Shown here in pieces: positions 3,243 to 42,594 of a DNA stretch of 64,000 bases. This DNA is from an uncultured Alphaproteobacteria bacterium. Its GTDB lineage: Bacteria > Pseudomonadota > Alphaproteobacteria > HIMB59 > GCA-002718135. The stretch spans positions 135,941-199,940 of the forward strand of contig CABZCZ010000001.1 in NCBI GenBank assembly GCA_902524385.1, given 5' to 3'. Position numbers and translations under genes: made by a program. The notes beneath the pieces were generated by a model, which made no database searches, was not told the origin of the DNA, and was given only the letters and a program-made list of their open reading frames with translations. The first letter of the stretch is position 1. The number at the start of each line of letters is the position of its first letter.

Positions 3243-3247
3243 AATTT

Positions 3248-3694: not shown

Positions 3695-3695
3695 A

Positions 3696-4940: not shown

Positions 4941-5209
4941 TATTCTTGTTTCTCTAAAGCGTACACAGTGTCTGTACTATTAAATTTTGCATCAAATTCT
5001 TTTGATTTTGGATCTTCAAATAAAGCATAAAATTTATCTTGGTCAGTAACATTTGCCATACTAATAACATGACCATCTTTTACAAAAGCCATATCAAAGC
5101 CATCTGTATATTTAGCTATATCTTCTTTAAAGTAATTATATAATTCCATATAATCATCTTTTGTAAATGTTCCTTTTGTAACAACACATAAGTTCATATT
5201 TTTCTCCAT
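4937..5209 (-). CDS. small hypothetical protein (alpha+beta-fold-like)
   Basis: 90-aa ORF with balanced composition. The more likely start is the second ATG at 5197, preceded by GGAGA. The stop overlaps the ureG stop by 4 nt. Confidence 0.5.
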
Positions 5210-5223
5210 TTATTCAAAAAAAA

Positions 5224-5252
5224 ATCCTCACCATTTCTCTTAATGGGAGGAT
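5224..5252 (-). terminator. intrinsic-terminator-like hairpin plus U9 in the leader of the 4937-5209 gene
   Basis: On the minus strand, ATCCTCCC-loop-GGTGAGGAT is followed by nine T (5216-5224), ending about 10-20 nt before the start codon. No co-directional upstream gene exists for it to terminate. Confidence 0.5.
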
Positions 5253-5433
5253 AATTTTATACGTATCTCATTTTAGCTGCTTGTGAACCGCAATAGAGTC
5301 AAATCGTTGTAATTTAGTTAATACATTTTTGTTACAATTCAATTAAATCCTATAATATTATTAAAATTAATTAGTTCTTATCGATAAAAGTTAATTTATT
5401 TGAACTTTTCATTACAAAACCTATATTTTATTT

Positions 5434-5718
5434 ATGAAAATTTTAGACAATATATCTAATTTATTTAACCAAAGTTCAAAAAAATCAGATAAAGAAGAAG
5501 CTATTCCTGAAAATCTTCGGAGCAAGGAATTAGAATGGAAACTAGCTTTACTTGTTAGAAATATGGATGACGTAGAAGATATAGATCTAAAATTTGTTAG
5601 TGTTTCCAAAATTGATATGGGTACCAAAAAAGATTTATTTACATCCTATAGATTGGATTTCAATGGAAGAGAAAGATTAAATCAATTTAAGAAAAAATAC
5701 AAAAATATACTTCTGTAA
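5434..5718 (+). CDS. hypothetical protein
   Basis: 94-aa charged ORF. The competing antisense ORF is Ser/Leu-rich and looks like a shadow. Confidence 0.45.
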   Translation: MKILDNISNLFNQSSKKSDKEEAIPENLRSKELEWKLALLVRNMDDVEDIDLKFVSVSKIDMGTKKDLFTSYRLDFNGRERLNQFKKKYKNILL

Positions 5719-5747
5719 AAAATATTTAATAAAATAATTTATAAATC

Positions 5748-6152
5748 TTATTCGTATTTATCAGAATACAAATAAGGTATGCCAATTACTAAAATAATAT
5801 AGAAGACCATAAAACCAGCTATTAGTGGAATAACTTCACCAGCAGGCACTGTACTAAATGGACCTAAAACAAATCCATAAATCACAAAAAGAATATTTAA
5901 ACCTACTAAATAATAGCCACCACTTCTTTTCATGCTATACAACATATAAATTGTGTAAGCGATTGCTAACTGAAATACGATACTTACAATAAAATCTAAA
6001 GTTGAGAGCTGAACATTAAAATCTCCAACAGGGGGTTGTACACCTTGCCCTGAAAAATACCCATAAGTTATTCGGTAGGTAGTATCAATAAAATCTAATG
6101 AAATTAAAATTAACATAATCCAATGTAATGGCTTGAATAAAGTTTCTTTCAT
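5748..6152 (-). CDS. hypothetical integral membrane protein
   Basis: 134 aa with about 4 hydrophobic segments. Confidence 0.55.
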   Translation of the reverse strand: MKETLFKPLHWIMLILISLDFIDTTYRITYGYFSGQGVQPPVGDFNVQLSTLDFIVSIVFQLAIAYTIYMLYSMKRSGGYYLVGLNILFVIYGFVLGPFSTVPAGEVIPLIAGFMVFYIILVIGIPYLYSDKYE

Positions 6153-6183
6153 ATTGTTTTAATACTATTTTAATACTGATTCT

Positions 6184-6888
6184 CTAATTATTATTTTTTT
6201 CATTGTCTTGTTGATGATTAACAACATCAACCAGTATTGCAATTACAAGATTTAAGATTGTTATTGAACAAATAGAGATAAAAGAAAAAAAATAAATCCA
6301 AGACCACCAATATATTGCTTGCATAGGCAGCATAACATTTTCCCAACTGGATAAGGTTAAAACCTGAAAAAGAGTAATAAGAGAAATACCTAGATCAGCC
6401 CATCTTTCTGGATCATCATCTCCAAAGAGAATAGATCCCATTGTTGCATAAATATATAGTATTATAAAAAGGAGCAAACTGACAAAAAAAACTCTTTTGA
6501 TTGATGCAAGAATAGCTTCAATAATTTTTTTTAATTCAGGTATTACAGATATCAGTCGTAGAACTCTAAATATACGAAGTAGACGTAAAACTAAGAAACT
6601 AGAGTTGTTAGGAATTGGTATAAGAGAAATTGCAACAATTATTGTATCAAAAACATTCCAACCATTCTTTAAAAAATTTTTTTTCTCTTTTTCACCTATA
6701 AAACGGATAAGTATTTCAATTACAAAGAAAACAGTTATAGCATAGTCAAGTAGATGAATCGTATTTAGAAAGATTGGATCTAACTGATAAGTTGTAGCGC
6801 CTATAAGGATAGCATTTAATATTATTATAGTTACAACTGAGAATTGAAATATACGATTATCTTTTAATTTTGCAAAAAAATCTATCAT
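6184..6888 (-). CDS. voltage-gated ion channel, single 6-TM domain (BacNaV-like)
   Basis: 234 aa. S4 is LRLLRIFRVLRL, with 4 Arg at every third residue. The pore segment LFQVLTLSSWENVM aligns with the NaChBac/NavAb LFQVMTLESWSM. Confidence 0.8.
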   Translation of the reverse strand: MIDFFAKLKDNRIFQFSVVTIIILNAILIGATTYQLDPIFLNTIHLLDYAITVFFVIEILIRFIGEKEKKNFLKNGWNVFDTIIVAISLIPIPNNSSFLVLRLLRIFRVLRLISVIPELKKIIEAILASIKRVFFVSLLLFIILYIYATMGSILFGDDDPERWADLGISLITLFQVLTLSSWENVMLPMQAIYWWSWIYFFSFISICSITILNLVIAILVDVVNHQQDNEKNNN

Positions 6889-7076
6889 TCTAGATTAATT
6901 AAAGCTATCGAAGCAGTATCTACTAAAATAAAATTTTACCATTCTCTACTTTAATCATATCTCTTATTCTTTCACCCATATTTACTCTTTATAAATTTTC
7001 AACATTATTCTCATTTTGTAAATCATAAAAATAAAGAGTTTAATATTTTCATTATTTAAATATTTCGGATACATAT

Positions 7077-8075
7077 TTAAAGACCTGTTTTTATTACTAC
7101 TTTACCATGTTTATCTCGTGGTTCTTTTAAATATTCCCACGCATTACGATATTCTTCCATTGGATATGTACGATCAATATTAGGCTTTAACTTTTCTTCT
7201 TTCAATGATTTATAAACAAAATCAGTTCCTCTATTTTTCATTTCAACATTTTCAACATAATTAAATAGTGAATATGGATGAAATGTAGCGTTTGCTTGAA
7301 ACATATCCACTATTGGTAATTGTGGAAATACTCCATCTAAAGTTCCATAAAAATAAATAGTGGCATCACGTGCAAGAGCAGGACTATATTTTGATATCAT
7401 GTCCTGGCCAACAGGATCAAAGGCAGCATCAATACCTCTACCGTTTGTCATTTCATTAATAGTAGATGCTAAATTATTTTTTTTAGGAACAATTACATAC
7501 GAAGCGCCTGACTGAATTAAATAGTCAGTATTTTTTTCAAACCTTGTAGTTGTAATCATATTGGCTCCATATAATTTGCCAATATTTAATGCTGCATTTC
7601 CAGCTGTACTCGTTCCAGCTGTTACGAGAATATTTTTTTCTGGTGAAGCTTTGCAAAGTTCAACCATTGGGTAATAAGCAGTCATAAATTGCATCCATAC
7701 CGAAGAACTTTCCACAGCACTTAATCCTTCTGGTGCACGAGTAATATATCTTGCATCTATCGTGATATAATCAGCACTCGCACCTTTATTATAATAAAAG
7801 TAGGGTAGAGTGCAGTATCGTTTACCAAGTTCTATATTATTTACACCTTCTCCAATTTGATCAACTATTCCAGCAGCTTCCATTCCTATTCGTGCAGGAA
7901 ATTTTTCAAAACTAAAAGAATATCGATCCAGCATTAAATCCATATCACCCCAATTGAGAGCAAAAGCTTCAATTCTAAGACGTACTTCACCTGGACCTGC
8001 GTTTTGTATTTCACAATCCCGTAATGTTAAACCTTGATAACCTGAATATTCATAAATAACCCATTCACGTGCCAT
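7077..8075 (-). CDS. MDR-family NAD(P)H quinone oxidoreductase / zinc-type alcohol dehydrogenase-like
   Basis: 332 aa with a GroES-like N-domain and a Rossmann region (VTAGTSTAGNAA). Confidence 0.8.
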   Translation of the reverse strand: MAREWVIYEYSGYQGLTLRDCEIQNAGPGEVRLRIEAFALNWGDMDLMLDRYSFSFEKFPARIGMEAAGIVDQIGEGVNNIELGKRYCTLPYFYYNKGASADYITIDARYITRAPEGLSAVESSSVWMQFMTAYYPMVELCKASPEKNILVTAGTSTAGNAALNIGKLYGANMITTTRFEKNTDYLIQSGASYVIVPKKNNLASTINEMTNGRGIDAAFDPVGQDMISKYSPALARDATIYFYGTLDGVFPQLPIVDMFQANATFHPYSLFNYVENVEMKNRGTDFVYKSLKEEKLKPNIDRTYPMEEYRNAWEYLKEPRDKHGKVVIKTGL

Positions 8076-8110
8076 AATTTTTACTTACTTTTATTAATAA
8101 AATTGTAATA

Positions 8111-9130
8111 CTAAATTGTCTTTAAATTATCAATTTTTCTATCCATGATAAAGAACCATAATGGAGGAATTAAAGCCATTACTAACATGACAGAATAATT
8201 AGCAGGCATTTCTATTGCTTTTTCTTCTTGAGATAGAAGAGGGTAAGGTTTTGATGCACTTTGATGATGCTCTGCATGAAGACCTAAATTAAATGTCGAC
8301 CAATTAGCGGAAATATGACGACTATTCCAAGAATGGAGATCTGTGAATCTTTCATATCTTCCATTCTCTTTTTTTCTCTCTAATCCATAGTGTTGAATAT
8401 AATTTACTATTTCCAATAAAATAATTGAAACAAAAGAATGAAAAATAACAAAAACTAAACCATTAATTCCAGCAACTAAGTAAGCTATTAACAAAAATAT
8501 AAATTCCAGTACAAAATAATGTATCATTCTGTTCTGTAGATTTAAAGTTTTAATATTTTTTCTTTCAAGAATATTTTTTTCAATTTTCCATGAAGAAATT
8601 ACACTATTAATTACACACCGAATAAAATAAAAATAAAAATTTTCTCCTCTTCTAGCTGTAGCAGGATCTTCTTTTGTAGCTACCTTTCGATGATGACCAT
8701 AAATATGTTCAATACGAAAATGTCCATAACAACATAAAACAAGTAAGAATACACCAATACCTCGCATAAATTTATTTTGTCTATGAATAAGTTCGTGCGC
8801 TGTGGTAATACCTATTGAGCCACCAGACATACCTACAGCTGCCCCTAATGCTGTTGCCGCTAAAATTGTAATATTAGGATTTGAAACAATATATAAACCA
8901 AAGATTATCAAGAATAATATACAAGGAAGTACTATTAAAATTGAGAAATTGTGAAAGACATTTTCTTTTAACTCAAGATCATCCTTATTTAAATAAGGTA
9001 AGAGCAAATCAATAATTGGAACTAATACAAAAACCCAAATAAATGGGGATATCGACCAGGATGGATTAATTATTAATCCTAAGGAACTAGAAAGTATTAA
9101 TATTAGTGGAGTTACTAAATAAAAAATCAT
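8111..9130 (-). CDS. alkB: alkane 1-monooxygenase-like membrane di-iron hydroxylase
   Basis: 339 aa. His boxes HELIHR, EHIYGHHRKVATKEDPATARRGE, NYIQHYGLER and LHAEHH closely follow the AlkB pattern. Confidence 0.8.
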   Translation of the reverse strand: MIFYLVTPLILILSSSLGLIINPSWSISPFIWVFVLVPIIDLLLPYLNKDDLELKENVFHNFSILIVLPCILFLIIFGLYIVSNPNITILAATALGAAVGMSGGSIGITTAHELIHRQNKFMRGIGVFLLVLCCYGHFRIEHIYGHHRKVATKEDPATARRGENFYFYFIRCVINSVISSWKIEKNILERKNIKTLNLQNRMIHYFVLEFIFLLIAYLVAGINGLVFVIFHSFVSIILLEIVNYIQHYGLERKKENGRYERFTDLHSWNSRHISANWSTFNLGLHAEHHQSASKPYPLLSQEEKAIEMPANYSVMLVMALIPPLWFFIMDRKIDNLKTI

Positions 9131-33762: not shown

Positions 33763-33999
33763 GTGAAAAAAATTGAAATCGAAATTGATGAAAATATTGA
33801 AATTATAAAAAATACAATTTTGAGATTGAGCTACATATTTACAGATTATAATTTTTCCCATGAATATAACAAAATTATTATAGAAGGTAAAAATTTAATC
33901 TATGAAGAGATTAAAGAAAAGGTATTTTATTATATTTACAAAGAAAAGATTAATTTACAAAATGCTTCTATTCGAAAAAAAATTTATGAATCTTTCTAA
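33763..33999 (+). CDS. hxsD: candidate HxsD-like small protein
   Basis: 78 aa with a GTG start. It sits directly upstream of the first rSAM gene, coupled by TAATG, as HxsD does. Sequence similarity to the family motif is weak. Confidence 0.45.
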   Translation: MKKIEIEIDENIEIIKNTILRLSYIFTDYNFSHEYNKIIIEGKNLIYEEIKEKVFYYIYKEKINLQNASIRKKIYESF

Positions 34000-35417
34000 T
34001 GAATTTATTTCCATATCAATTTCATAATATCAATAATAAGAAACTTATTACAAATGATGCTGGAGAATTTTTTTTTACAAATGAAAAGCACTTAGATAAA
34101 CTCATAAAAAGAGAGATAGACGGTAAATTTACAAAGTTTTTGTTAAATAAAGGTTTTATGTATGAGAAAGAAAATGACCTGTATTGGAATAATTTCAAAT
34201 ATAAATTAGTAAAAAGAAAAAAACTACCTGATCAACTTAGTTATTTTATGATCATTCCAACTCTAAGATGTAATTTAAATTGCAGTTATTGTCAGGTTTC
34301 AAGAGTTGATGAAAAAGCTAAGAACTATGATTGGAGTGCAGAGGATTTAAAATTATTTTTAAATTTTTTAGAAACTAATAATACCACAAGAGGAAAAATA
34401 GAATTTCAAGGTGGAGAACCAACATTGCGGTTAGATATTATCAATAAGATTCAGCATTGGATTAAAAATAATAACTTAAATTTTGATTTAATAATTTGTA
34501 CTAATTTACAAAATTTATCCAATGATTTTAAAAAATTATTAGAAAATGAAAATGTATTCATAAGCACATCTATAGATGGGAAAAAATCAATTCATCAAAA
34601 ACAAAGGACAAAAGATAAAGGTACAACAGATGAATTTTATAAAAATTTAGATTTCGTATTAAAAAATTATGGAAATGATAAAATTTCAGCCCTGCCTACT
34701 TTTACTGATTTTTCTAAAATAGATGAAACTGTTGAATATTATAAAGAGTTAGGTCTAAAATCTATATTTCTTAGACCTGTTAATTTTCAAGGATTTGCCA
34801 GAAAAAAATATCCATCATCTTTAAATCAAGTCGATTTGTGGACAGATGCTTATTTTAAATCTTTAGATAAGATATTTTTAAATAATCATAAAAGTAAGGA
34901 TAGAATTTTAGAATTTGGATTTGAAAATATTTTAAAAAGAATTTTTAACGTTGGTTATAATGGTTATGTAGATTTACGTAGTCCAAATTTCTATGCAAAA
35001 GATAATGTAATTATTGATTACGATGGTAAATTTTACCCATCCGATGAAGCTAGAATGCTAACTAGAATTAAGTTAATGGATTTTTCAATTGGTAATTTGA
35101 GAGATGGCTTTGATAATGATAAGCTTTCAAAATTTAATTGGAATTCAATGAATGAAACAAATCCTGATTGTATTAATTGTGCATATCAACCTTATTGTGG
35201 AATTGATATTGTCGATGATATATCAAGATATAGTAGGGCTGATTTACCAAAATATTTAACTTCTTTTTGTCAAACTCATATGAAAAAATTTAATTATGTA
35301 TTTGATAAAATTATATCAATGGATCCAGTTAATTTATTTAATATTAATGGTCATCTAACTAAAAATTTTAATTATCAACCACCATTTGGACAAATTTACT
35401 ATGATACGACTCACTAG
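33999..35417 (+). CDS. hxsB: radical SAM/SPASM-type maturase (HxsB-like)
   Basis: 472 aa. The CxxxCxxC cluster motif is in IIPTLRCNLNCSYCQV, followed by GGEPTL. C-terminal Cys cluster NPDCINCAYQPYCG...FCQTH. Confidence 0.8.
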   Translation: MNLFPYQFHNINNKKLITNDAGEFFFTNEKHLDKLIKREIDGKFTKFLLNKGFMYEKENDLYWNNFKYKLVKRKKLPDQLSYFMIIPTLRCNLNCSYCQVSRVDEKAKNYDWSAEDLKLFLNFLETNNTTRGKIEFQGGEPTLRLDIINKIQHWIKNNNLNFDLIICTNLQNLSNDFKKLLENENVFISTSIDGKKSIHQKQRTKDKGTTDEFYKNLDFVLKNYGNDKISALPTFTDFSKIDETVEYYKELGLKSIFLRPVNFQGFARKKYPSSLNQVDLWTDAYFKSLDKIFLNNHKSKDRILEFGFENILKRIFNVGYNGYVDLRSPNFYAKDNVIIDYDGKFYPSDEARMLTRIKLMDFSIGNLRDGFDNDKLSKFNWNSMNETNPDCINCAYQPYCGIDIVDDISRYSRADLPKYLTSFCQTHMKKFNYVFDKIISMDPVNLFNINGHLTKNFNYQPPFGQIYYDTTH

Positions 35418-36492
35418 AACAATAGAACATGAATTAACGGTAAAAGAATCTTTTGTTGTAAAAATTGTTAATAAAAATTTTGAATTACTTGAAGAGAATG
35501 AAGCAATATCTAAAAATAATGGTAATTTCATAGAGGTTATTACAAAATATGGTAAATTTAAATTTGAAAATATAGATGAGCCATTATCAATAGATGAAGT
35601 TTTAATAATATTTACTGAGGTAAATAAATGTCAAAGATTCTTTAGACCATCAGCTACAATCAATACAATTTTATTAACGGAAGAATGTGATCAACTTTGT
35701 ATTATGTGCTCTCAACCACCTAAAAATAAAAGATACGATCATTTTGATCTATTTTATGAGGCTGCTATGCTAATACCTTTTAATTCGACTTTAGGTATTT
35801 CTGGAGGAGAGCCAACTTTACTTAAAAAAAATTTATTTAAATTCCTTAATAGGGTTATTACTGTGAGAAATGATATTCGCTTTCATATTTTGAGTAATTG
35901 TCAGCATATTGAGAATGAAGATATTAAAATATTAGCTAAATTGTCAAAAAATATTTTATGGGGAATACCTGTATATTCTCATATTCCTCAAACACATGAT
36001 ACTATTGTCGGTAAAAAAGGCTCTTTTGTAAGAGTTATGGAAAGCTTCAACTATTTTATACAAACTGGTTCTAGAGTTGAATTAAGAACAGTCTTGCTTC
36101 AACAAAATTACGAAGATTTACCAAAATTATCAGAATTTATAACTACACATCTAAACTGGATTGAGTTTTGGGCAATAATGCAATTGGAAAATTTTGGATA
36201 CGCTAAGATGAATTGGGATAGAATATTTTTCGATAATTCAAAAAGCTTTGAAAATTTAGGTTATGCAATTAACACTATTTCTGCAAAAAGAATGAATGTT
36301 TCACTTTATAACTTCCCTCTTTGTACAATACCAGATTTCTATAGAAAATATGCAGTTAGATCAATTTCTGATTGGAAACAAAAATATCTTGATGAGTGTA
36401 CGGGCTGTGTTGAAAAAGATTATTGTGGTGGATTTTTTGAATGGTACAATAAAGAAAAAGGATATAATAAAATTGGATTGAGAAAGTCATGA
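35386..36492 (+). CDS. hxsC: radical SAM maturase (HxsC-like)
   Basis: 368 aa (or start at ATG 35401). Motifs LTEECDQLCIMCSQ (CxxxCxxC) and GGEPTL, with a C-terminal CTGCVEKDYCGG. It overlaps hxsB and joins hxsA through an ATGA junction. Confidence 0.8.
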   Translation: MDKFTMIRLTRTIEHELTVKESFVVKIVNKNFELLEENEAISKNNGNFIEVITKYGKFKFENIDEPLSIDEVLIIFTEVNKCQRFFRPSATINTILLTEECDQLCIMCSQPPKNKRYDHFDLFYEAAMLIPFNSTLGISGGEPTLLKKNLFKFLNRVITVRNDIRFHILSNCQHIENEDIKILAKLSKNILWGIPVYSHIPQTHDTIVGKKGSFVRVMESFNYFIQTGSRVELRTVLLQQNYEDLPKLSEFITTHLNWIEFWAIMQLENFGYAKMNWDRIFFDNSKSFENLGYAINTISAKRMNVSLYNFPLCTIPDFYRKYAVRSISDWKQKYLDECTGCVEKDYCGGFFEWYNKEKGYNKIGLRKS

Positions 36493-37040
36493 TTAAATTT
36501 TTAATATCTACACTAGCGGCCGCAGGTTTATTAGATTCTCCTGAAAATATTGACGGAAATAATAAAGGTGAAGAAAAAACTAAAACAATTGAAAATGCTT
36601 TTTTTAACTATTTTAATTATGACTTAGGTTATACTTTGGCTGCACATAGCTCTCATGGATCACATGGATCTCATGGATCACATGGATCTCATCAATCTCA
36701 TTCTAATTCTGGACATAGTAGTCATCAAAGTCATGTAAGTCATCAATCTTCTAGCCAACCAAGTTCTCCTATAGTCCCTAAAGGTGGTAACAACGCTACA
36801 CCACCAAAATCAATTCTTCCGGAAACTCCTCAAAAATTAAAAGGCTCAATGGGAGAATTTAAAATTAAAACACTACAAGTTCAGGCGGTTCTTTATGCTT
36901 ATGGTTATTATAATGGATCACTTGATGGAATAATAGGACCAGATACTAAAATCGCGATTATGAATTTTCAAAAGGATTACGGCTTAACTGTTACAGGTAC
37001 TTTATCAGATGAATTACTTAAATATCTTCAAATCAAATAG
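36489..37040 (+). CDS. hxsA: His-Xaa-Ser repeat protein (HxsA-like) with C-terminal peptidoglycan-binding-type domain
   Basis: 183 aa. Signal-like N-terminus, HSSHGSHGSHGSHGSHQSHSNSGHSSHQSHVSHQS tract, Pro/Ser linker, and a C-terminal YGYYNGSLDGIIGPDTKIAIMNFQKDYGLTVTG motif. Confidence 0.85.
   Translation: MIKFLISTLAAAGLLDSPENIDGNNKGEEKTKTIENAFFNYFNYDLGYTLAAHSSHGSHGSHGSHGSHQSHSNSGHSSHQSHVSHQSSSQPSSPIVPKGGNNATPPKSILPETPQKLKGSMGEFKIKTLQVQAVLYAYGYYNGSLDGIIGPDTKIAIMNFQKDYGLTVTGTLSDELLKYLQIK
36645..36749 (+). repeat. in-frame His-x-Ser codon repeat, including 4 tandem CATGGATCW 9-mers
   Basis: 36654-36689 is CATGGATCA CATGGATCT CATGGATCA CATGGATCT. Degenerate CAT-NNN-TCN/AGT units flank it. Confidence 0.9.
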
Positions 37041-37413
37041 TTTTTATATTTTAACATTAGTCTTATTACTTGGAATAATAATTGGTTCATTATGGAAAAT
37101 ACCATTAAAATATTTTCTAATTAATATTTACCAAGAGGATTTTAGCGAGTTAGTTTATAAATGTGATAATTCTATGAGAGATCACTTTATTGCAAAAGCT
37201 CAAGTTTTAAAAAATTATAATGAAGATACTATTGAAAATTTAGAACAAACTGAATTAGGTTTAATTGATTGCCATGATTATGATTTATTAAGAAAAAAAT
37301 TAATTTTACTTGGTCTTACAAACAATGAACTTTCATATATGGGCTTGAAAGCTATAGAAAAAAATGGAGCTGATTTAAAAAAATTAGTAGAAATACATGA
37401 AATACTTTATTAG
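37009..37413 (+). CDS. hypothetical N-terminally anchored protein
   Basis: 134 aa with one TM segment (FYILTLVLLLGIIIGSLW). It overlaps hxsA by 32 nt and the next gene by 17 nt. Confidence 0.45.
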   Translation: MNYLNIFKSNSFYILTLVLLLGIIIGSLWKIPLKYFLINIYQEDFSELVYKCDNSMRDHFIAKAQVLKNYNEDTIENLEQTELGLIDCHDYDLLRKKLILLGLTNNELSYMGLKAIEKNGADLKKLVEIHEILY

Positions 37414-38647
37414 TTTTTTATTAATTTTTTTTTCTGTAAGTGTATTAGCATCTTCTTTTTATTCTAAACTATTAAAAGAAGCAGCTTTAAAAAATAATTT
37501 TAAACAAATATCAGTTGTAAATAAAAAATTTGATAAAAAAAAATCTTCTTTAGGAAAGAAGTTTTTTCATGACACGATGTTAAGTTTTAATTCTGATATG
37601 TCTTGTGGCACTTGCCATCTAACTAAATTTAGTTCTGCAGATGGGTTACCAAATGCTGTTGGGGTAGGAGGAGAAGGTGAGGGAATTGATAGAATGTTTA
37701 GTGACGGTGAAATTGTTCCTAGGAATACTTTACCTCTATGGGGAAGGGGATCAAAAGATTTCAATACACTTTTTTGGGATGGTAAAATTACACAAGTTGA
37801 TGGCGAAATAATAAGTCAATTAGGCTTATTAACAAAAAATTATGCTTCAATGGATAATGAATATGAAATCATTCAGGATTTTTATCAAGATCCACTTATA
37901 TCAGCAGTTCACCTACCATTTGTAGAAATTAGAGAATTAGTTGCAGATGATGAAGAAGTAACAGAAGTTTTAAAAAAAGAAAGTATTGATACTGCTATGA
38001 ATGTTTTTTATGACTTAACTGAGAGAATAAAAAAAGATTCAGACTATACAAAAGAAATTAAAGAGATTTATAATTTAGAAGTCGATCAAATAGAGTTTTT
38101 TGTTGTTGCAGATGCTATTGCACATTTTATTAGAGATGAGTTTGCAATTAAAGAAACTATATTTTCTGATTTTGTATTTAATGACGGAAAATTAAATGAC
38201 GATGCAATAAGAGGAGGTTTGTTATTTTATGGAAAAGCTAAATGTAGTAGTTGCCATAGTGGAACTTTATTTTCAGATCTAGATTTTCATTCAATTCCAT
38301 ATCCTCAAGTCGGTTTTGGTAAAAATGGCTTTGGAGTAGACTATGGAAGATTTAATGTAACTTACGACCCTGACGATTTATATAAGTTTAGAACGCCTCC
38401 GTTGATAAATGTTGAGTTCACCAAGCCTTATTCACATTCCGGATCTGTTTTTGATTTAAAAGAAGCAATTAGATATCATTTTGATCCTCTGAAAAATTTG
38501 GATTTACAAAATATCTCAGATCTAGAAAGAGTTGAAATGTATAAAAAACTTAAAATATCAGGTCAAAATATTAATCAGATACCCTACTTAGATGAAAATG
38601 AATTAGATCAATTAGTTGAATTTTTAAAAACTTTAAGTTTTAAATAA
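37397..38647 (+). CDS. di-haem cytochrome c peroxidase / MauG-family protein
   Basis: 416 aa with a signal peptide. Two CxxCH motifs (CGTCH, CSSCH). Family signature FRTPPLINVEFTKPYSHSGSVFDLKEAIRYH. Confidence 0.85.
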   Translation: MKYFISFLLIFFSVSVLASSFYSKLLKEAALKNNFKQISVVNKKFDKKKSSLGKKFFHDTMLSFNSDMSCGTCHLTKFSSADGLPNAVGVGGEGEGIDRMFSDGEIVPRNTLPLWGRGSKDFNTLFWDGKITQVDGEIISQLGLLTKNYASMDNEYEIIQDFYQDPLISAVHLPFVEIRELVADDEEVTEVLKKESIDTAMNVFYDLTERIKKDSDYTKEIKEIYNLEVDQIEFFVVADAIAHFIRDEFAIKETIFSDFVFNDGKLNDDAIRGGLLFYGKAKCSSCHSGTLFSDLDFHSIPYPQVGFGKNGFGVDYGRFNVTYDPDDLYKFRTPPLINVEFTKPYSHSGSVFDLKEAIRYHFDPLKNLDLQNISDLERVEMYKKLKISGQNINQIPYLDENELDQLVEFLKTLSFK

Positions 38648-38654
38648 TATTTAA

Positions 38655-39422
38655 ATGAACTTATTGACTAAATTTAGTTTTTATACAATTCTGGTATTTC
38701 TAATTGTATTTAGTTTAAGTTATTTAAGTGGATTATATGAAACGGAAATAAAACCTCGTTTTAATGGTTATTCGAAAAATAATATTTCTTTTAAGAATAA
38801 AAATGAAATTAAAATCAATGGCAATAAAATTAATTCAGAAATAATAAGTTTTTTACATTATTACAACGAAAATTTAAAATTAGATTCATTAAAGGACAAT
38901 GTAAATTTAAAAAAGATAAACATAAAGTTTTTAGAATGTGAAACAAATAAGTATAAAAAAAATAAACAAGTTTCTAGTAATAAAAAAGATTTCAAATTCG
39001 ATCCAAATATTAAATCCAATTTTATATTTAATATAAATTGTTTACATAATCTTATTCAAAAAGGAGAAAAAACCCATATTATATATGATATCAATCAGTA
39101 TAATTGCTCATGGAGAGGTTACAAAAAAGTTTATCAAATTGATAATCACTATTTATTAGATATAACCGAAAAAGTATGTGGAACTTTACCATCTAGATTT
39201 CATAATTTTTATTTAGTCAAAATAGATAATAATGAAATTTATATTGTCGATTCAATATTATCAGGAAGATATCCAATAAATAGGTTAAATTATTTTAAAA
39301 TAATTAATAAAAAAATAAAAATTATTACCGATAATTGTAATGAGGGCTCTAAAAATTGTTTTGGTTTAAGGCCAGAATATTTTGAATTAAATTTTGAAGA
39401 AAACTTTAACAATAACTCTTAG
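38655..39422 (+). CDS. hypothetical anchored protein (last gene of the block)
   Basis: 255 aa with an N-terminal TM segment. Asn/Lys-rich. It starts 7 nt after the MauG-like gene. Confidence 0.45.
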   Translation: MNLLTKFSFYTILVFLIVFSLSYLSGLYETEIKPRFNGYSKNNISFKNKNEIKINGNKINSEIISFLHYYNENLKLDSLKDNVNLKKINIKFLECETNKYKKNKQVSSNKKDFKFDPNIKSNFIFNINCLHNLIQKGEKTHIIYDINQYNCSWRGYKKVYQIDNHYLLDITEKVCGTLPSRFHNFYLVKIDNNEIYIVDSILSGRYPINRLNYFKIINKKIKIITDNCNEGSKNCFGLRPEYFELNFEENFNNNS

Positions 39423-40059
39423 CTTTTTTTGCAGCATCTAGAACTTGTATCAATAAATTTCTTTTATCTAAAATTTGTTCTTTCTCAAAATTACTTTTAT
39501 TCCATAATCCTTCGTAAATAACATTATTTACTAAATAAACACCTTTGCCATGCCTTTCACCATCTTTGAAATTTCCATAATAATATTCATTTGGTGAAAA
39601 AAAATAAATACCTAAACCTTCTCTAAGACCATTTTTGTATAAGCCTAAATATCTATGAGAAGAATTTTCCCAAGATGTTAGTCCATATCCATGATTTTTA
39701 TTTAAATATATTTGCCCAATGTAATTACCATTAGAAAATTTCTGATTAACGCAAGCTAAACCATTTTCAGGAAGTATATTTTGTTTTTTTTCAGCAACTA
39801 ACGTCTTATTTTTATTTTTAATATATAGATTATATTCTGCTACTATAGTTTCTCTATCTCCATAACTACATTTTTTATTGTTTGTTTTATAAATTACTCC
39901 ATCATTTTTCTTACAATAATAATCTTTAATAATTGCTGCTTTAGTTTCAGTAATTTTGTAACTATTATTATTTGATAAATTATTTGATGTCGTTCCACCT
40001 AAACATCCATATAAAAATAAAAAGGACATAAGTATTAAACACTTATTTATATTTAACAT
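39406..40059 (-). CDS. MORN-repeat lipoprotein
   Basis: 217 aa. Lipobox-like LFLYGC. Repeats of the YxGxxxxGxxxGxG type (YIGQIYLNKNHGYG, YLGLYKNGLREGLG, YYGNFKDGERHGKG). Confidence 0.7.
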   Translation of the reverse strand: MLNINKCLILMSFLFLYGCLGGTTSNNLSNNNSYKITETKAAIIKDYYCKKNDGVIYKTNNKKCSYGDRETIVAEYNLYIKNKNKTLVAEKKQNILPENGLACVNQKFSNGNYIGQIYLNKNHGYGLTSWENSSHRYLGLYKNGLREGLGIYFFSPNEYYYGNFKDGERHGKGVYLVNNVIYEGLWNKSNFEKEQILDKRNLLIQVLDAAKKAKSYC

Positions 40060-40109
40060 TTTCTAGACATTCTAAATCATAGTTTTTTTTATTAAACAAA
40101 AATAAAGTA

Positions 40110-40565
40110 TTATAAAAATGAAATTTGATCAATGGGAGACATATGCCCATTTTCAATTTCATCTAATGTAGAATTCGCTTTTTCTATTAATTTTATAGCA
40201 TTATTTAGAGCCCACATTTGTTTTGTTGCTAAATTTTCGTCAAAAACCTTGTTGCCTAAGTCTATTTGATTTTGTTCTTCTTTAATTTTATTAATTATAT
40301 ATTCTGCAGCACTGATCGCATTAAAAGAGACATTAGTAAGTTTTGAAGCTTTTCCCATAAACTCTTTTCTCATCATTATTGTTTCTTTAAGATCAAGTCT
40401 TTCTCTTCTTTTTTTTAACCACCCTTCATTAGCCGCCTGTTTTCTAAGTGTAGACAATGAATAGTTGAATTCAGTAGCGATATCTTGAAGAGTAGGGTAC
40501 TCATTTCTATTTCCTTTTATATAATAATTACGTGCTTCAGTGTAATCAGGACGTTTTCTTGTCAT
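40110..40565 (-). CDS. phage-type HTH protein (terminase-small-subunit-like N-terminus)
   Basis: 151 aa. ...YYIKGNRNEYPTLQDIATEFNYSLSTLRKQAANEGWLKKRRE resembles the HTH of phage small-terminase/DNA-packaging proteins. Called by pattern only. Confidence 0.45.
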   Translation of the reverse strand: MTRKRPDYTEARNYYIKGNRNEYPTLQDIATEFNYSLSTLRKQAANEGWLKKRRERLDLKETIMMRKEFMGKASKLTNVSFNAISAAEYIINKIKEEQNQIDLGNKVFDENLATKQMWALNNAIKLIEKANSTLDEIENGHMSPIDQISFL

Positions 40566-40648
40566 AAAAACATTAATGCTAATGATTCTCTTTAAAGAAA
40601 GTTCTAGAAAAAAATATTTGTTTAAAAAAATTTAATAATGTGAATAAA

Positions 40649-41383
40649 TTAGTTTTTTTTATTACTTAAAAGTAAATTTTTAAATTCTTCAACAGCAACT
40701 GTTGCAGGTTTGTGAATGGCAAAATCAAATTGATTTTGATTACGTGATGGTTCTAAATTTAATTCAACAGTTGGCTTATTCATATCTTTGAACATTGTAA
40801 CAAATCCAGCGGCAGGGTAGACCTCTCCAGAGGTACCAATTGAAACAAACATGCTAGATTGCTCAGCTAAATCGTGAATTTCATCCATTTGCATGGGCAT
40901 TTCACCAAACCACACAATGTGAGGTCTCATTTGTGAACCGCATTCAGGGCATTTATGGGTCTCATTTAGGTCCACCAGCCACTCAAATACATGATTATCA
41001 TTCATCATACATCTAGCTTTATTTAACTCACCATGCATATGAATTATTGATGATGACCCGCCAATCTCATGCAAATTATCGATATTCTGTGTAACTATAT
41101 GAATTTTATATGTTTTTTCAAATTCATGAAGTAAAATATGGGCCCTATTTGGCTTAATTCCTGAATTTAGTTCTTTTCGACGTTTATTATAAAAATCATA
41201 GACAAGAGTAGGGTTTCTATAGAATCCTTCTGGACTGGCAACATCTTCAATCCTATGATTATTCCAAAGTCCATCTGAGTCTCTGAATGTTTCAATCCCA
41301 GACTCTTTGCTTATACCAGCACCCGTTAATATAAAGATCTGGGAATCAGCTGAAATCTGCGGTAATTGTTCCATTTGATACAC
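40649..41383 (-). CDS. cobB: NAD-dependent protein deacylase (Sir2/CobB family)
   Basis: 244 aa. Motifs GAGISKESGIETFRDSDGLW, QNIDNLHE, the CPECG zinc site, and a GTSG-type segment. Confidence 0.9.
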   Translation of the reverse strand: MYQMEQLPQISADSQIFILTGAGISKESGIETFRDSDGLWNNHRIEDVASPEGFYRNPTLVYDFYNKRRKELNSGIKPNRAHILLHEFEKTYKIHIVTQNIDNLHEIGGSSSIIHMHGELNKARCMMNDNHVFEWLVDLNETHKCPECGSQMRPHIVWFGEMPMQMDEIHDLAEQSSMFVSIGTSGEVYPAAGFVTMFKDMNKPTVELNLEPSRNQNQFDFAIHKPATVAVEEFKNLLLSNKKN

Positions 41384-41503
41384 TATATACAGTATTTTAT
41401 TACACGTGAAAATCTATATCTAGTTTGTAATTTTAGAAATAGATTTAGATAATATATATAAATTATTGAAATATATACTTAATATTTATTGCTTGACTAT
41501 TAT

Positions 41504-41527
41504 TTACGATAACTGTAATTATCGTAA
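41504..41527. promoter_or_regulatory. 9-6-9 inverted repeat TTACGATAA-ctgtaa-TTATCGTAA (lox/dif-like site or operator)
   Basis: A perfect 9-bp inverted repeat with an asymmetric 6-bp spacer. It lies 9 nt upstream of the recombinase ATG and just downstream of TTGACT (41493-41498). Confidence 0.4.
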
Positions 41528-41535
41528 TATATATT

Positions 41536-42594
41536 ATGGTTAAAATATCACTTAATGATAAAGTAACAAAGCTAAAGGAAAAATCTAAGGCTAAGAACAC
41601 ACAAGATAAGTACCAAGGTGATTGGTTAAAATTTATAGATTACTGCAATGATAAATATAAATGTAGCCCATTAGATGTAGATGATATGGATAGCGCATAT
41701 GCATTAACTGCAAATTATATGGATTGGCTACATGAAGATCCAGAAGCTAAAATACTAAAAGGCACAAGCAATATTCCTGGAAGAGAAAAAGTAAATAACA
41801 ACCCCTACTCCTCAACTGCCTATAAAGCATCGACCATTCAAAGAATTCTTGCATCAATTACTTATAAATACAGAGTAAACGGATTTCAATTTGACAGAAA
41901 AAATCCAAATATATCAGAAACTATAAGCGCTATAGTTAGAGATGAAAAGAATAATCAATCTGGGCAAGCAAAAGAGTTATTAAAAAAAGATATTGAAAAA
42001 ATAATAGATAATATACCGACAGATAAAGATGATATTAGAAATATTAGAGATAAAGCTCTCATACTAGTAGGTTTTTATAGTTTTTGTAGAAGATCAGAAC
42101 TGCTTGGCATGAAATATGAACATTTAAACTTTGAAAAAGATGGAATTCAAGTTTTAATTCCCTTTTCAAAAACAGATCAAAAGGGTGAAGGCAGAATGAT
42201 ATATTTACCAAGAAATGATTCTACGTATTGTCCAGTTAAAGCACTTAAAAACTGGTTAGAAAGTGCTTTGATTGATACTGGCCCCCTCTTTTATAAGATT
42301 AACAAAGCAAATAATATTGAAAAATATATTCTCAATAATAAAAATCAAAAAGTAAGTTTAACAGATACAAGTTTTGTTATAATTTTAAAGAAGAGAGCCG
42401 AAGAAGCAGGGTTAAATAATTGCGATAAAATTTCTGGTCATAGTCTAAGGATTGGATCGATTACTCAAGCTAGGATGAATGGAGTTCCAACTCATGAAAT
42501 TATGGCTCAGAGCGGTCATAAAACAACACAGATGATTGATAGGTATACTAAGTTAACAAATATTAAAGAAACAAGTGCTGCAAAAAAATTATGA
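41536..42594 (+). CDS. tyrosine recombinase/integrase, Cre-like
   Basis: 352 aa. Catalytic pattern ...CRRSEL... (Arg), HSLRIGS (His-x-x-Arg), GHKTTQMIDRYT (His...Tyr). The overall layout resembles Cre (DIRN...; SGHS.R.G...). Confidence 0.9.
   Translation: MVKISLNDKVTKLKEKSKAKNTQDKYQGDWLKFIDYCNDKYKCSPLDVDDMDSAYALTANYMDWLHEDPEAKILKGTSNIPGREKVNNNPYSSTAYKASTIQRILASITYKYRVNGFQFDRKNPNISETISAIVRDEKNNQSGQAKELLKKDIEKIIDNIPTDKDDIRNIRDKALILVGFYSFCRRSELLGMKYEHLNFEKDGIQVLIPFSKTDQKGEGRMIYLPRNDSTYCPVKALKNWLESALIDTGPLFYKINKANNIEKYILNNKNQKVSLTDTSFVIILKKRAEEAGLNNCDKISGHSLRIGSITQARMNGVPTHEIMAQSGHKTTQMIDRYTKLTNIKETSAAKKL

What the first reader, a model, noticed from the sequence alone, without database searches (positions are those of the whole stretch)
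37397..38647. Di-haem MauG/cytochrome-c-peroxidase-family gene welded to the Hxs operon
- The 416-aa product has a signal peptide (MKYFISFLLIFFSVSVLASS).
- It has two haem-c attachment motifs (CGTCH, CSSCH).
- It carries the family signature FRTPPLINVEFTKPYSHSGSVFDLKEAIRYH.
- The gene overlaps the preceding gene by 17 nt and begins 357 nt after the end of hxsA.
- MauG is the textbook di-haem enzyme that completes a protein-derived cofactor (TTQ) on a periplasmic precursor by oxidative crosslinking.
- Linkage to an exported rSAM-substrate candidate suggests a two-compartment maturation route: rSAM chemistry in the cytoplasm, then haem-dependent oxidation in the periplasm.
- I am not aware of this linkage being described for Hxs loci. 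It could alternatively be an ordinary peroxidase hitch-hiking in the operon.
Basis: partly seen in the sequence, partly recalled or inferred. Interest (0 to 1): 0.65.

Follow-up and report, generated by a model that had tools for sequence, protein, structure and literature searches.

The report
Known di-haem accessory of HXS defence
The gene is real and truly belongs to the His-Xaa-Ser (HXS) radical-SAM system, but this link is already built into curated protein-family names, and the enzyme lacks the haem ligand that MauG needs for its special chemistry.

Summary
ORF 37397-38647 (+) encodes a 416-aa exported-looking di-haem protein (CGTCH 70-74, CSSCH 283-287). It overlaps the preceding gene by 17 nt, at the end of a hxsD?-B-C-A cluster.

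The claimed novelty does not hold.
- The protein passes the curated NCBIfam model TIGR03981, "His-Xaa-Ser system-associated MauG-like protein" (377 bits, cut-off 340).
- The overlapped 134-aa gene is TIGR03982, "His-Xaa-Ser system protein".
- RefSeq already annotates the same cassette on a Tritonibacter plasmid.

Co-occurrence is strong in one direction only.
- 74 of 80 genomes with a homologue have an HxS-repeat ORF nearby, and 77 have TIGR03982 directly upstream.
- Only 14 of 44 environmental hxsC loci carry the module, always both genes together. It is an optional two-gene accessory.

MauG-type chemistry is not supported.
- The position of MauG Tyr294 (Met275 in peroxidases) is an invariant His (201/201).
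- MauG Trp199 is absent.
- The MauG model scores 75 bits against a cut-off of 444.

HXS was shown in 2026 to be an anti-phage system with a periplasmic HxsA effector. A periplasmic oxidative step on HxsA or on TIGR03982 is therefore plausible, but untested.

The parts
33763..33999 (+). 78-aa ORF at the HxsD position, immediately upstream of hxsB with a 1-nt overlap (ATGA). Putative HxsD.
   Evidence: Assigned by position only. No NCBIfam or Pfam hit even at E<=10. Weak phmmer matches (19-36 bits) to ORFs at the same position in 12 of 80 related loci.
33999..35417 (+). hxsB, radical SAM/SPASM maturase
   Evidence: TIGR03978 scores 393.8 bits against a cut-off of 370. Pfam Radical_SAM also matches.
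35386..36492 (+). hxsC, radical SAM maturase. The longest ORF starts at TTG 35386. ATG 35401 is the start used by public gene calls (363 aa).
   Evidence: TIGR03977 scores 305.4 bits against a cut-off of 267.9. Alternative start seen.
36489..37040 (+). hxsA, the His-Xaa-Ser repeat protein. It has 10 HxS units at aa 53-87 and a C-terminal peptidoglycan-binding domain.
   Evidence: TIGR03979 is the best hit but falls below its cut-off (90.5 vs 121.65 bits). PG_binding_1 scores 52.9 bits at aa 130-178. Repeats counted.
37009..37413 (+). TIGR03982-family His-Xaa-Ser system protein, 134 aa. It has an N-terminal hydrophobic helix, invariant Cys52/Cys88, His59, His130 and a conserved C-terminal HEIRY. 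It is the obligate partner of the di-haem protein.
   Evidence: TIGR03982 scores 90.5 bits against a cut-off of 40. PF27798 in precomputed hits. Found directly upstream of the di-haem gene in 77 of 80 genomes. Present in 14 of 14 metagenome loci that carry the di-haem gene. Conservation shown.
37397..38647 (+). TIGR03981 "His-Xaa-Ser system-associated MauG-like protein", 416 aa: an exported-looking di-haem c protein.
   Evidence: TIGR03981 scores 377.2 bits against a cut-off of 340. PF03150 matches. AF2 model has pLDDT 86 and pTM 0.86, with a CCP/MauG fold.
37397..37456 (+). Signal-peptide-like N-terminus MKYFISFLLIFFSVSVLASS
   Evidence: Read directly from the sequence. A hydrophobic N-terminus is present in all aligned family members. 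Inferred, not run through a predictor.
37604..37618 (+). Haem 1 attachment motif CGTCH (C70, C73, H74). This is the presumed catalytic haem.
   Evidence: Invariant in 200 of 201 sequences. Aligns with MauG C31xxC34H35.
37775..37777 (+). Trp127 in the FWDGK motif, the inter-haem Trp (= MauG Trp93)
   Evidence: Present in 200 of 201 sequences. Alignment.
37910..37936 (+). Distal-pocket segment H172-L-P174-F-V-E177-I-R179-E180. E180 = MauG Glu113 and P174 = MauG Pro107. H172 and R179 are family-specific.
   Evidence: Conservation: H172 in 195 of 201, E180 in 201 of 201. Alignment. The roles of H172 and R179 are inferred.
38243..38257 (+). Haem 2 attachment motif CSSCH (C283, C286, H287)
   Evidence: Invariant in 201 of 201 sequences.
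38477..38479 (+). His361, at the sixth-ligand position of haem 2. It aligns with MauG Tyr294, the MbnH Tyr and the peroxidase Met275.
   Evidence: Invariant in 201 of 201 sequences. The spacing from the PYxH motif is the same 14 residues as in MauG and CCP. HMM and MAFFT alignments.

Best explanation
The gene encodes the di-haem component of an optional two-gene periplasmic accessory module. The module is the membrane-anchored TIGR03982 protein plus the TIGR03981 di-haem protein, attached to a His-Xaa-Ser (HXS) system.

**Core system.** HxsB, HxsC and a small HxsD-position protein modify the HxS-repeat, peptidoglycan-binding protein HxsA in the cytoplasm. HxsA then acts in the periplasm. In E. 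coli this system blocks phage DNA entry.

**Proposed role of the module (inferred).**
- The di-haem protein is exported by Sec and receives two c-type haems.
- It activates H2O2 (or O2) at haem 1, which lacks the distal His ligand of peroxidases and keeps the catalytic Glu180.
- Haem 2, predicted to be His287/His361-ligated, and Trp127 serve as the electron relay.
- The enzyme oxidises a protein substrate of the system. That substrate is either exported rSAM-modified HxsA or its own partner TIGR03982.
- Because the Tyr ligand is replaced by His, the oxidant is expected to be a compound-I/ferryl species at haem 1, not MauG's bis-Fe(IV) state.

**Shown versus inferred.** Shown: family membership, cassette architecture, co-occurrence and residue pattern. 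Inferred: location, oxidant, substrate and defence role in this organism.
For: - **Membership.** TIGR03981 scores 377 bits (cut-off 340) and TIGR03982 scores 90.5 bits (cut-off 40). NCBI uses the same names for homologues and for a RefSeq plasmid cassette.
- **Operon-like packing.** All six genes lie on one strand. Five junctions overlap by 1-32 nt, and no terminator-like site lies between genes.
- **Co-occurrence.** Among 80 genomic homologues, HxsB is present in 73, HxsC in 75, TIGR03982 in 77 and an HxS-repeat ORF in 74. The pair accompanies three different hxs layouts, including short secreted HxsA variants.
- **Optional, strictly paired.**
  - 14 of 44 metagenome hxsC loci carry the module, and always both genes.
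  - 411 plasmids carry hxsB, but only 1 carries this di-haem type.
- **Residues.**
  - Invariant: 2 x CxxCH, W127, N110, E180 and H361.
  - CCP His71 is replaced by Val/Ile/Thr.
  - H361 aligns with MauG Y294 and CCP M275.
- **Ligand precedent.** Tyr-to-His variants of MauG and BthA lose the bis-Fe(IV) band, and the BthA variant keeps peroxidase turnover (PMC6405878).
- **Periplasmic HxsA.** HxsA is periplasmic and peptidoglycan-bound in the characterised system (PMC13128918).
- **Enzyme-substrate precedent.** MbnP-MbnH genes are adjacent and overlapping (PMC11951088).
Against: - No experiment on any TIGR03981 or TIGR03982 protein was found.
- The only functional HXS study never mentions a haem protein, and its four-gene system works without one.
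- HxsA sequences from loci with and without the module show no clear discriminating residue, so nothing points specifically to HxsA as the substrate.
- HxsA has no conserved Trp or Tyr in the repeat core.
- The His361 ligation and the five-coordinate state of haem 1 come from alignment, not from a structure containing haem. Invariant His172 could instead ligate haem 1.
- PADLOC has no model for these proteins.
- A defence role in this marine organism is extrapolated from E. coli.
Confidence: 0.55

Rival explanations
1. TIGR03982 is the substrate. The di-haem enzyme modifies its own membrane-anchored partner, as MbnH converts a Trp of MbnP to kynurenine. This would create a cofactor or metal site that then works with HxsA. 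HxsA would not be touched by the haem enzyme.
For: - TIGR03982 is the tightest partner. It lies directly upstream in 77 of 80 loci and is present in 14 of 14 metagenome loci that carry the di-haem gene.
- The pair stays together when hxsBCA is on the other strand.
- TIGR03982 has invariant Cys52, Met56, His59, Cys88, Tyr91 and His130, and a conserved C-terminal Tyr.
- MbnP-MbnH genes show the same substrate-then-enzyme overlapping order (PMC11951088).
- MbnH is the best structural match (6e1c, E 1.3e-12).
Against: - The pair is almost never found without hxs genes (L076 is the only exception), so its role depends on the Hxs system.
- MbnH uses a Tyr-ligated haem and bis-Fe(IV), which this family lacks.
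- TIGR03982 has no Trp-rich motif and no PDB relative.
Confidence: 0.25
2. It is a true MauG-type enzyme. It uses a bis-Fe(IV) state and long-range hole hopping to cross-link or oxygenate residues on periplasmic HxsA.
For: - Superfamily membership (PF03150).
- The inter-haem Trp127, the Ca-site Asn110/Thr342/Pro344, Glu180 and Pro174 are conserved.
- Like MauG, it has no distal His on haem 1.
- The operon links it to a protein substrate candidate.
Against: - Tyr294 is replaced by an invariant His361 in 201 of 201 sequences.
- The Y294H MauG and Y463H BthA variants cannot form the bis-Fe(IV) near-IR species (PMC6405878).
- Trp199 is absent and Gln103 is replaced by Ala.
- The TIGR03791 MauG equivalog scores 75 bits against a cut-off of 444.
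- There are no mau genes in the window.
- Structurally it is no closer to MauG (TM 0.66-0.68) than to peroxidases (TM 0.74-0.77).
Confidence: 0.07
3. It is an ordinary peroxide-detoxifying cytochrome c peroxidase that merely sits in, or hitch-hikes with, the operon.
For: - JGI pipelines call homologues "cytochrome c peroxidase".
- The fold is closest in TM-score to active-form peroxidases.
- The BthA Tyr-to-His variant keeps peroxidase turnover.
Against: - Near-obligate linkage to hxs genes and TIGR03982 across at least 8 phyla.
- It forms a separate clade from a canonical CCP in the tree.
- It lacks the CCP Met ligand and His71.
- It has a family-specific 30-45 aa insertion after FWDGK.
- No conserved cytochrome or cupredoxin electron donor gene lies nearby.
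Confidence: 0.08

Closest known systems
NCBIfam TIGR03981 (His-Xaa-Ser system-associated MauG-like protein) with TIGR03982 / Pfam PF27798
   Same: - The protein passes the curated cut-off (377 vs 340 bits).
- The partner passes its own cut-off (90.5 vs 40 bits).
- The gene order hxsB-hxsC-hxsA-TIGR03982-TIGR03981 matches the RefSeq-annotated Tritonibacter plasmid cassette.
   Different: - Only minor differences were seen.
- A ~15-aa insertion (aa 146-160) is shared only with the closest marine relatives.
- The associated HxsA is atypical: 10 Arg-free repeats and a score below the TIGR03979 cut-off.
- The family itself has no tested function.
HXS anti-phage system of E. coli (Li et al., Nat Commun 2026, PMC13128918)
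   Same: - HxsB and HxsC are radical SAM enzymes.
- HxsA has HxS repeats and a peptidoglycan-binding domain.
- The gene order is D-B-C-A.
   Different: - The characterised system has four genes and no haem protein. That paper reports over 99.8% of (mostly enterobacterial) systems as four-gene.
- The window carries two extra periplasmic-type genes.
- The small upstream ORF does not match the HxsD model.
MauG (TTQ biosynthesis, Paracoccus denitrificans)
   Same: - Di-haem c fold.
- Inter-haem Trp, Ca-site residues, and catalytic Glu and Pro.
- No distal His on haem 1.
- Encoded next to a protein substrate candidate.
   Different: - Tyr294 is replaced by His.
- Trp199 is absent, and Gln103 is replaced by Ala.
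- There is a 30-45 aa insertion after FWDG.
- It scores 75 bits against the 444-bit cut-off.
- It is not in a mau operon.
MbnH (acts on MbnP, Trp to kynurenine)
   Same: - MbnH is the best structural hit (6e1c, E 1.3e-12).
- It is the second-best NCBIfam hit (112 bits).
- Its gene overlaps an upstream partner gene.
   Different: - MbnH has a Tyr at the ligand position and forms bis-Fe(IV).
- The query scores far below the MbnH cut-off (112 vs 363 bits).
- The partner proteins are unrelated.
Canonical bacterial di-haem cytochrome c peroxidases (e.g. P. aeruginosa CcpA, 1eb7)
   Same: - Highest TM-scores (0.74-0.77).
- The FWDG, PRN and PYxHSG motifs and the catalytic Glu are shared.
   Different: - Met275 is replaced by His.
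- His71 is replaced by Val.
- Hxs genomic context instead of a stand-alone gene.
RoxA/RoxB rubber oxygenases
   Same: Members of the same superfamily. Their second haem is bis-His ligated and serves a minor or electron-relay role (PMC6311187).
   Different: - RoxA is ~70 kDa.
- Its distal His lies far from the PYFH motif.
- It binds O2 and cleaves polyisoprene.
- It has no hxs linkage.

Membership tests
TIGR03981 His-Xaa-Ser system-associated MauG-like protein | Score at or above the curated NCBIfam cut-off (340 bits) | tested here: met
   377.2 bits, aligned over aa 9-413 and model positions 6-411 of 411.
TIGR03981 His-Xaa-Ser system-associated MauG-like protein | Encoded next to hxsB, hxsC and hxsA | tested here: met
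   All lie on the same strand, with hxsA ending 357 nt upstream. The same holds in 73-75 of 80 homologous loci.
TIGR03981 His-Xaa-Ser system-associated MauG-like protein | Adjacent TIGR03982 partner | tested here: met
   The 134-aa ORF 37009-37413 scores 90.5 bits against a cut-off of 40 and overlaps the gene by 17 nt.
CCP_MauG superfamily (PF03150) | Two CxxCH haem-c sites, inter-haem Trp, Ca-site Asn and the PYxH(S/N/D)G motif | tested here: met
   C70xxC73H74, C283xxC286H287, W127, N110 and P344-Y-S-H347-S-G are present. PF03150 scores 82.5 bits.
MauG (TIGR03791, TTQ biosynthesis) | Tyr axial ligand of the six-coordinate haem (Tyr294), required for bis-Fe(IV) | tested here: not met
   The aligned residue is His361, invariant in 201 of 201 sequences. 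The functional consequence is taken from PMC6405878.
MauG (TIGR03791, TTQ biosynthesis) | Surface Trp199 for hole hopping to the substrate | tested here: not met
   MauG ITW199NC aligns with YGKAKC in the window protein.
MauG (TIGR03791, TTQ biosynthesis) | Equivalog score cut-off (443.85 bits) and mau operon context | tested here: not met
   75.4 bits. No mauA or mauB genes near the gene. Compare the true mau operon.
MbnH family (TIGR04039) | Score cut-off of 362.85 bits, an adjacent MbnP partner and a Tyr ligand | tested here: not met
   112.5 bits. The partner is TIGR03982, not MbnP. His replaces Tyr at the ligand position.
Canonical bacterial cytochrome c peroxidase | His/Met-ligated high-potential haem (Met275 in P. 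aeruginosa) | tested here: not met
   Query position 361 (His) aligns to 1eb7 position 275. The Mesorhizobium CCP has Met in that column.
Canonical bacterial cytochrome c peroxidase | Distal His (His71) that ligates the peroxidatic haem in the resting enzyme | tested here: not met
   It aligns to Val90. The family has V, I or T in that column.
HXS anti-phage system (PMC13128918) | HxsB and HxsC radical SAM enzymes, plus HxsA with HxS repeats and a peptidoglycan-binding domain, in the order D-B-C-A | tested here: met
   TIGR03978 scores 393.8 bits and TIGR03977 scores 305.4 bits, both above their cut-offs. HxsA has 10 HxS units plus PG_binding_1, although it falls below the TIGR03979 cut-off.
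HXS anti-phage system (PMC13128918) | HxsD small protein | tested here: inconclusive
   A 78-aa ORF sits at the right position but has no model hit at E<=10. It gives weak matches to same-position ORFs in 12 loci.
HXS anti-phage system (PMC13128918) | Protection against phage by blocking DNA entry | not testable with these tools
   This needs plaque assays in a host carrying this cassette.

The most novel reading that the evidence does not exclude
The TIGR03982 + TIGR03981 pair is a second, periplasmic maturation or activation stage for the HXS anti-phage effector. In this reading, a naturally bis-His di-haem enzyme uses peroxide-driven ferryl chemistry, not bis-Fe(IV), to oxidise exported rSAM-modified HxsA or its membrane-anchored partner. 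That would be the first haem enzyme acting within a phage-defence system. It would also be a two-compartment (rSAM then haem) protein maturation route, and a new mechanistic branch of the CCP/MauG superfamily.
Probability: 0.3. Interest if true: 0.6.

Novelty: already known. Interest (0 to 1): 0.3.

Why it matters
As a discovery claim it does not stand. The linkage of a MauG-like di-haem protein to His-Xaa-Ser systems is encoded in curated family names and applied automatically by NCBI's annotation pipeline.

What remains of value is a sharper, testable question.
- HXS has just been shown to be an anti-phage system with a periplasmic effector, but that work covered only the four-gene form.
- About a third of the environmental relatives sampled here carry an extra, strictly paired periplasmic module whose function nobody has tested.
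- The di-haem enzyme has His where MauG, MbnH and BthA have Tyr and where peroxidases have Met.
- It should therefore not be assumed to work like MauG, despite its name.

Tried and rejected
- **Promoter and terminator scan of 33-40.2 kb.** It found 62 promoter-like sites against 57 expected and 1 terminator-like site against 1.4 expected. This is uninformative in DNA of ~27% GC.
- **PADLOC.** No model matched the di-haem protein, HxsA or the HxsD-position ORF. The two rSAM enzymes gave only generic viperin hits, and TIGR03982 gave a weak sub-threshold-looking hit.
- **First AF2 run.** A 21-sequence alignment gave a poor model (pLDDT 66.7). It was replaced by a 118-sequence run (pLDDT 86).
- **PDB search with only the C-terminal 77 aa.** This was meant to force a MauG alignment but gave only noise. 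The problem was solved by fetching the P. denitrificans mauG gene from plasmid NC_008688 and aligning locally.
- **Haft & Basu 2011 (PMC3133131).** This is the likely original description of the system, but it is not held in the library. The prior-knowledge claim therefore rests on NCBIfam, Pfam and PGAP names, not on that text.
- **HxsA comparison.** I looked for residues that distinguish HxsA in loci with and without the module. No clear discriminator emerged.
- **Third conserved gene downstream of the di-haem gene.** None was found; the largest cluster covered 6 of 80 loci. The 255-aa ORF at 38655-39422 is therefore not counted as part of the system.
- **IMG/VR viral contigs.** No relatives were found.
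- **PDB profile search for TIGR03982.** No hits.
- **Hitch-hiking peroxidase.** Considered and rejected on the co-occurrence evidence.
Full report
**1. Observation**

The ORF at 37397..38647 (+) is present as described: 416 aa with an ATG start.
- Its N-terminus, MKYFISFLLIFFSVSVLASS, looks like a Sec signal peptide.
- CGTCH lies at aa 70-74 and CSSCH at aa 283-287.
- The string FRTPPLINVEFTKPYSHSGSVFDLKEAIRYH lies at aa 331-361.
- The preceding ORF (37009..37413) ends 17 nt inside the gene.
- hxsA (36489..37040) ends 357 nt upstream.
- Pfam assigns CCP_MauG (PF03150, 82.5 bits).

The cluster reads as follows, all on one strand:

| Gene | Coordinates | Evidence |
|---|---|---|
| 78-aa ORF (HxsD position) | 33763-33999 | position only |
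| hxsB | 33999-35417 | TIGR03978, 393.8 bits (cut-off 370) |
| hxsC | 35386-36492 | TIGR03977, 305.4 bits (cut-off 267.9) |
| hxsA | 36489-37040 | 10 HxS units plus PG_binding_1; TIGR03979 90.5 bits, below cut-off 121.65 |
| 134-aa gene | 37009-37413 | TIGR03982, 90.5 bits (cut-off 40) |
| di-haem gene | 37397-38647 | TIGR03981, 377.2 bits (cut-off 340) |

Successive genes overlap by 1-32 nt. The consensus promoter and terminator scan is uninformative in this ~27% GC DNA.

**2. The linkage is already catalogued**

- The protein passes the curated NCBIfam model TIGR03981, whose name is "His-Xaa-Ser system-associated MauG-like protein". The overlapped gene passes TIGR03982, "His-Xaa-Ser system protein".
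- Precomputed Pfam hits list PF27798 "His-Xaa-Ser_sys" for the 134-aa protein.
- NCBI already gives homologues the TIGR03981 name.
- RefSeq annotates the cassette hxsB-hxsC-hxsA-TIGR03982-MauG-like on a conjugative Tritonibacter scottomollicae plasmid.
- The exact 416-aa protein is in public collections on marine TARA contigs with the same gene neighbourhood.
- The closest species-level genome is a Pelagibacteraceae single-cell assembly at 63% identity.
- I could not read Haft & Basu 2011, the probable original description.

**3. Co-occurrence**

A scan of one genome per species returned 80 loci with homologues at 35-63% identity. They come from Alpha- and Gammaproteobacteria, Nitrospirota, Acidobacteriota, Binatia, Verrucomicrobiota, Planctomycetota, Bacteroidota and Eremiobacterota.

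Within 8 kb of the homologue:
- HxsB is present in 73 loci and HxsC in 75.
- TIGR03982 is present in 77, always directly upstream.
- An ORF with at least 3 tandem HxS repeats is present in 74.
- The six loci without such an ORF are truncated contigs, except L076.

The pair accompanies three layouts:
- a colinear D-B-C-A-TIGR03982-TIGR03981 cassette;
- hxsBCA on the opposite strand;
- systems with short secreted HxsA variants (87-103 aa) that lack the peptidoglycan-binding domain.

The reverse test gives a different picture.
- Of 44 metagenome hxsC loci with at least 3 kb downstream, 14 carry the module, and always both genes.
- hxsB occurs on 411 plasmids, mostly Klebsiella, but this di-haem type occurs on only one.
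- Close HxsB relatives on Aminobacter and Rhizobium plasmids lack the module. The Aminobacter copy sits next to a CBASS system.
- No conserved gene follows the di-haem gene, and none was found in viral contigs.

The hitch-hiker reading is therefore rejected. The module is an optional, strictly paired accessory of Hxs systems.

**4. What kind of di-haem protein it is**

The NCBIfam scores rank TIGR03981 (377 bits) far above MbnH (112) and MauG (75), and the latter two are far below their own cut-offs. By PDB sequence search, peroxidases and MbnH score about 84 bits and MauG about 37 bits. An AF2 model from 118 family sequences (pLDDT 86, pTM 0.86) matches three groups:
- MbnH best by E-value (6e1c, 1.3e-12);
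- active-form peroxidases best by TM-score (0.74-0.77);
- MauG less well (0.66-0.68).

A small neighbour-joining tree puts the family apart from MauG, MbnH and a canonical CCP.

I fetched the P. denitrificans mauG gene and aligned it against a 201-sequence family profile.

| Window residue | Equivalent in reference | Conservation or note |
|---|---|---|
| C70xxC73H74 | MauG C31xxC34H35 | 200/201 |
| C283xxC286H287 | second CxxCH | 201/201 |
| Trp127 | MauG Trp93 | 200/201 |
| Asn110, Thr342, Pro344 | MauG Ca-site residues | Asn110 199/201 |
| Pro174 | MauG Pro107 | invariant in the 118-sequence alignment |
| Glu180 | MauG Glu113 | 201/201 |
| His361 | MauG Tyr294, the Tyr of a Methylocystis MbnH homologue, P. 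aeruginosa CCP Met275 | 201/201 |
| Lys/Gly/Ala | MauG Trp199 | Trp absent |
| Ala170 | MauG Gln103 | Gln absent |
| Val90 (V/I/T in family) | CCP His71 | His absent |

- His361 lies 14 residues after the PYxH motif, the same spacing as the ligand in MauG and CCP.
- Consistent with this, the Y294H MauG chain scores slightly higher than wild type against the query (39.4 vs 37.2 bits).
- The family has its own insertion of 30-45 aa after FWDGK, and near-invariant His172 and Arg179 beside Glu180.
- A Phaeobacter plasmid "peroxidase" that is not hxs-linked shares the His and the following D-PL motif. The His-type clade is therefore wider than TIGR03981.

**5. Mechanistic meaning**

Published work shows that replacing the Tyr ligand by His in MauG (Y294H) and BthA (Y463H) abolishes the bis-Fe(IV) near-IR species. 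BthA Y463H keeps peroxidase turnover (PMC6405878). RoxA shows that a bis-His second haem occurs naturally in the superfamily (PMC6311187).

The family name "MauG-like" therefore overstates the mechanistic resemblance. I expect peroxide (or O2) activation at haem 1, with a ferryl or compound-I type oxidant. Haem 2 and Trp127 would act as the electron relay. This is inference from alignment. No structure containing haem was available, and His172 could turn out to be a haem-1 ligand.

**6. System context**

In 2026 the four-gene E. coli HXS system was shown to block phage DNA entry (PMC13128918).
- HxsB, HxsC and HxsD process HxsA in the cytoplasm, adding +8 Da on SHRSS and cleaving the N-terminus.
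- The peptidoglycan-binding effector then acts in the periplasm.
- That paper never mentions a haem protein. It reports that over 99.8% of (mainly enterobacterial) systems have four genes.

A periplasmic haem enzyme plus a membrane-anchored partner in the environmental six-gene form fits a further periplasmic step. The substrate is open.
- HxsA from loci with and without the module shows no discriminating residue.
- TIGR03982 is the invariable neighbour. It has invariant Cys, His, Met and Tyr residues and no PDB relative.
- MbnP-MbnH offers a precedent for an overlapping substrate-enzyme gene pair.

In the window the cluster lies among ORFans, a SIR2-family gene and a tyrosine recombinase. No tRNA is present. 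Ordinary chromosomal genes such as urease and ABC transporters lie further out. This is compatible with a variable island.

**7. Verdict**

The functional linkage is real and the periplasmic second step is plausible. The linkage is not new, and MauG-type chemistry is contradicted by the ligand and Trp199 tests.
- Novelty: already known at the level of curated families, although the function has never been tested experimentally.
- Interest is modest at 0.3. The residual value is the prediction of a His/His haem 2 and the definition of an optional two-gene periplasmic add-on to a newly recognised defence system.

Noticed in passing
window 36489-37040 (+): The window's HxsA is atypical.
- It has 10 HxS units (aa 53-70 and 76-87), mostly HGS or HQS, and no Arg.
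- The consensus of about 100 other HxsA proteins is HRSHSSHxSHxSHRSS.
- The E. coli +8 Da site is SHRSS.
- It scores below the TIGR03979 cut-off (90.5 vs 121.65 bits).
- If the basic residues matter for DNA binding, as proposed for E. coli, this variant may work differently.
   Followed up: partly
window 38655-39422 (+): A 255-aa ORF starts 7 nt after the di-haem stop codon on the same strand. It has a hydrophobic N-terminus and several Cys residues, and matches no family. It occurs only in near-identical marine contigs and is not conserved downstream of the di-haem gene in 80 other genomes.
   Followed up: yes
window 37009-37413 (+); alignment A4: TIGR03982 proteins have invariant Cys52, Asp53, Met56, His59, Glu82, Cys88, Tyr91, Asp92, Lys96 and His130. 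Their C-terminus HEIRY-COOH is conserved. The pattern looks like a metal- or cofactor-binding or disulfide-containing periplasmic domain. No PDB relative was found.
   Followed up: partly
window 33763-33999 (+): The 78-aa ORF at the HxsD position does not match the HxsD model or any family, even at E<=10. RefSeq likewise leaves the equivalent small ORFs on alphaproteobacterial plasmids as "hypothetical". The HxsD model seems not to reach this branch.
   Followed up: partly
L090:4824-6176 (Phaeobacter gallaeciensis plasmid pP128_a): A 450-aa "cytochrome c peroxidase" lies next to a CRTAC1-family gene and an aldose epimerase gene, not next to hxs genes. It shares the His at the ligand position, the D-PL motif and the insertion after FWDG/FHDG. 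This points to a wider, uncharacterised His-type clade of the CCP/MauG superfamily. Related copies occur on 58 Phaeobacter plasmids.
   Followed up: partly
L088 (Aminobacter aminovorans pAA02), 3030-9070: A three-gene hxsBCA cluster without the di-haem module lies immediately beside a CBASS system (cGAS/DncV-like nucleotidyltransferase, phospholipase effector, ThiF and MPN genes). This fits a defence-island setting for Hxs systems in Alphaproteobacteria.
   Followed up: no
L042, L043, L068, L075 and similar loci (upstream of hxsB): Short secreted HxS-repeat peptides occur here.
- They are 87-103 aa, carry a signal peptide, and have repeats at the extreme C-terminus ending in SGY or SGR.
- Some loci have two tandem copies.
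- They replace the long peptidoglycan-binding HxsA, yet the loci still carry TIGR03982 and the di-haem gene.
   Followed up: partly
L091:3815-4999 (Methylocystis iwaonis plasmid): The di-haem MbnH-type gene downstream of mbnP is annotated in RefSeq as "methanobactin export MATE transporter MbnM". This looks like a mis-annotation.
   Followed up: no
window 39406-42594: Just downstream of the cluster lie a MORN-repeat lipoprotein-like gene (-), a 151-aa ORFan (-), a SIR2-family gene (40649-41383, -) and a phage-integrase-family tyrosine recombinase (41536-42594, +). ORFans lie upstream at 29.5-33.7 kb, and the window has no tRNA. This may be a variable genomic island. Its boundaries were not mapped.
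   Followed up: partly
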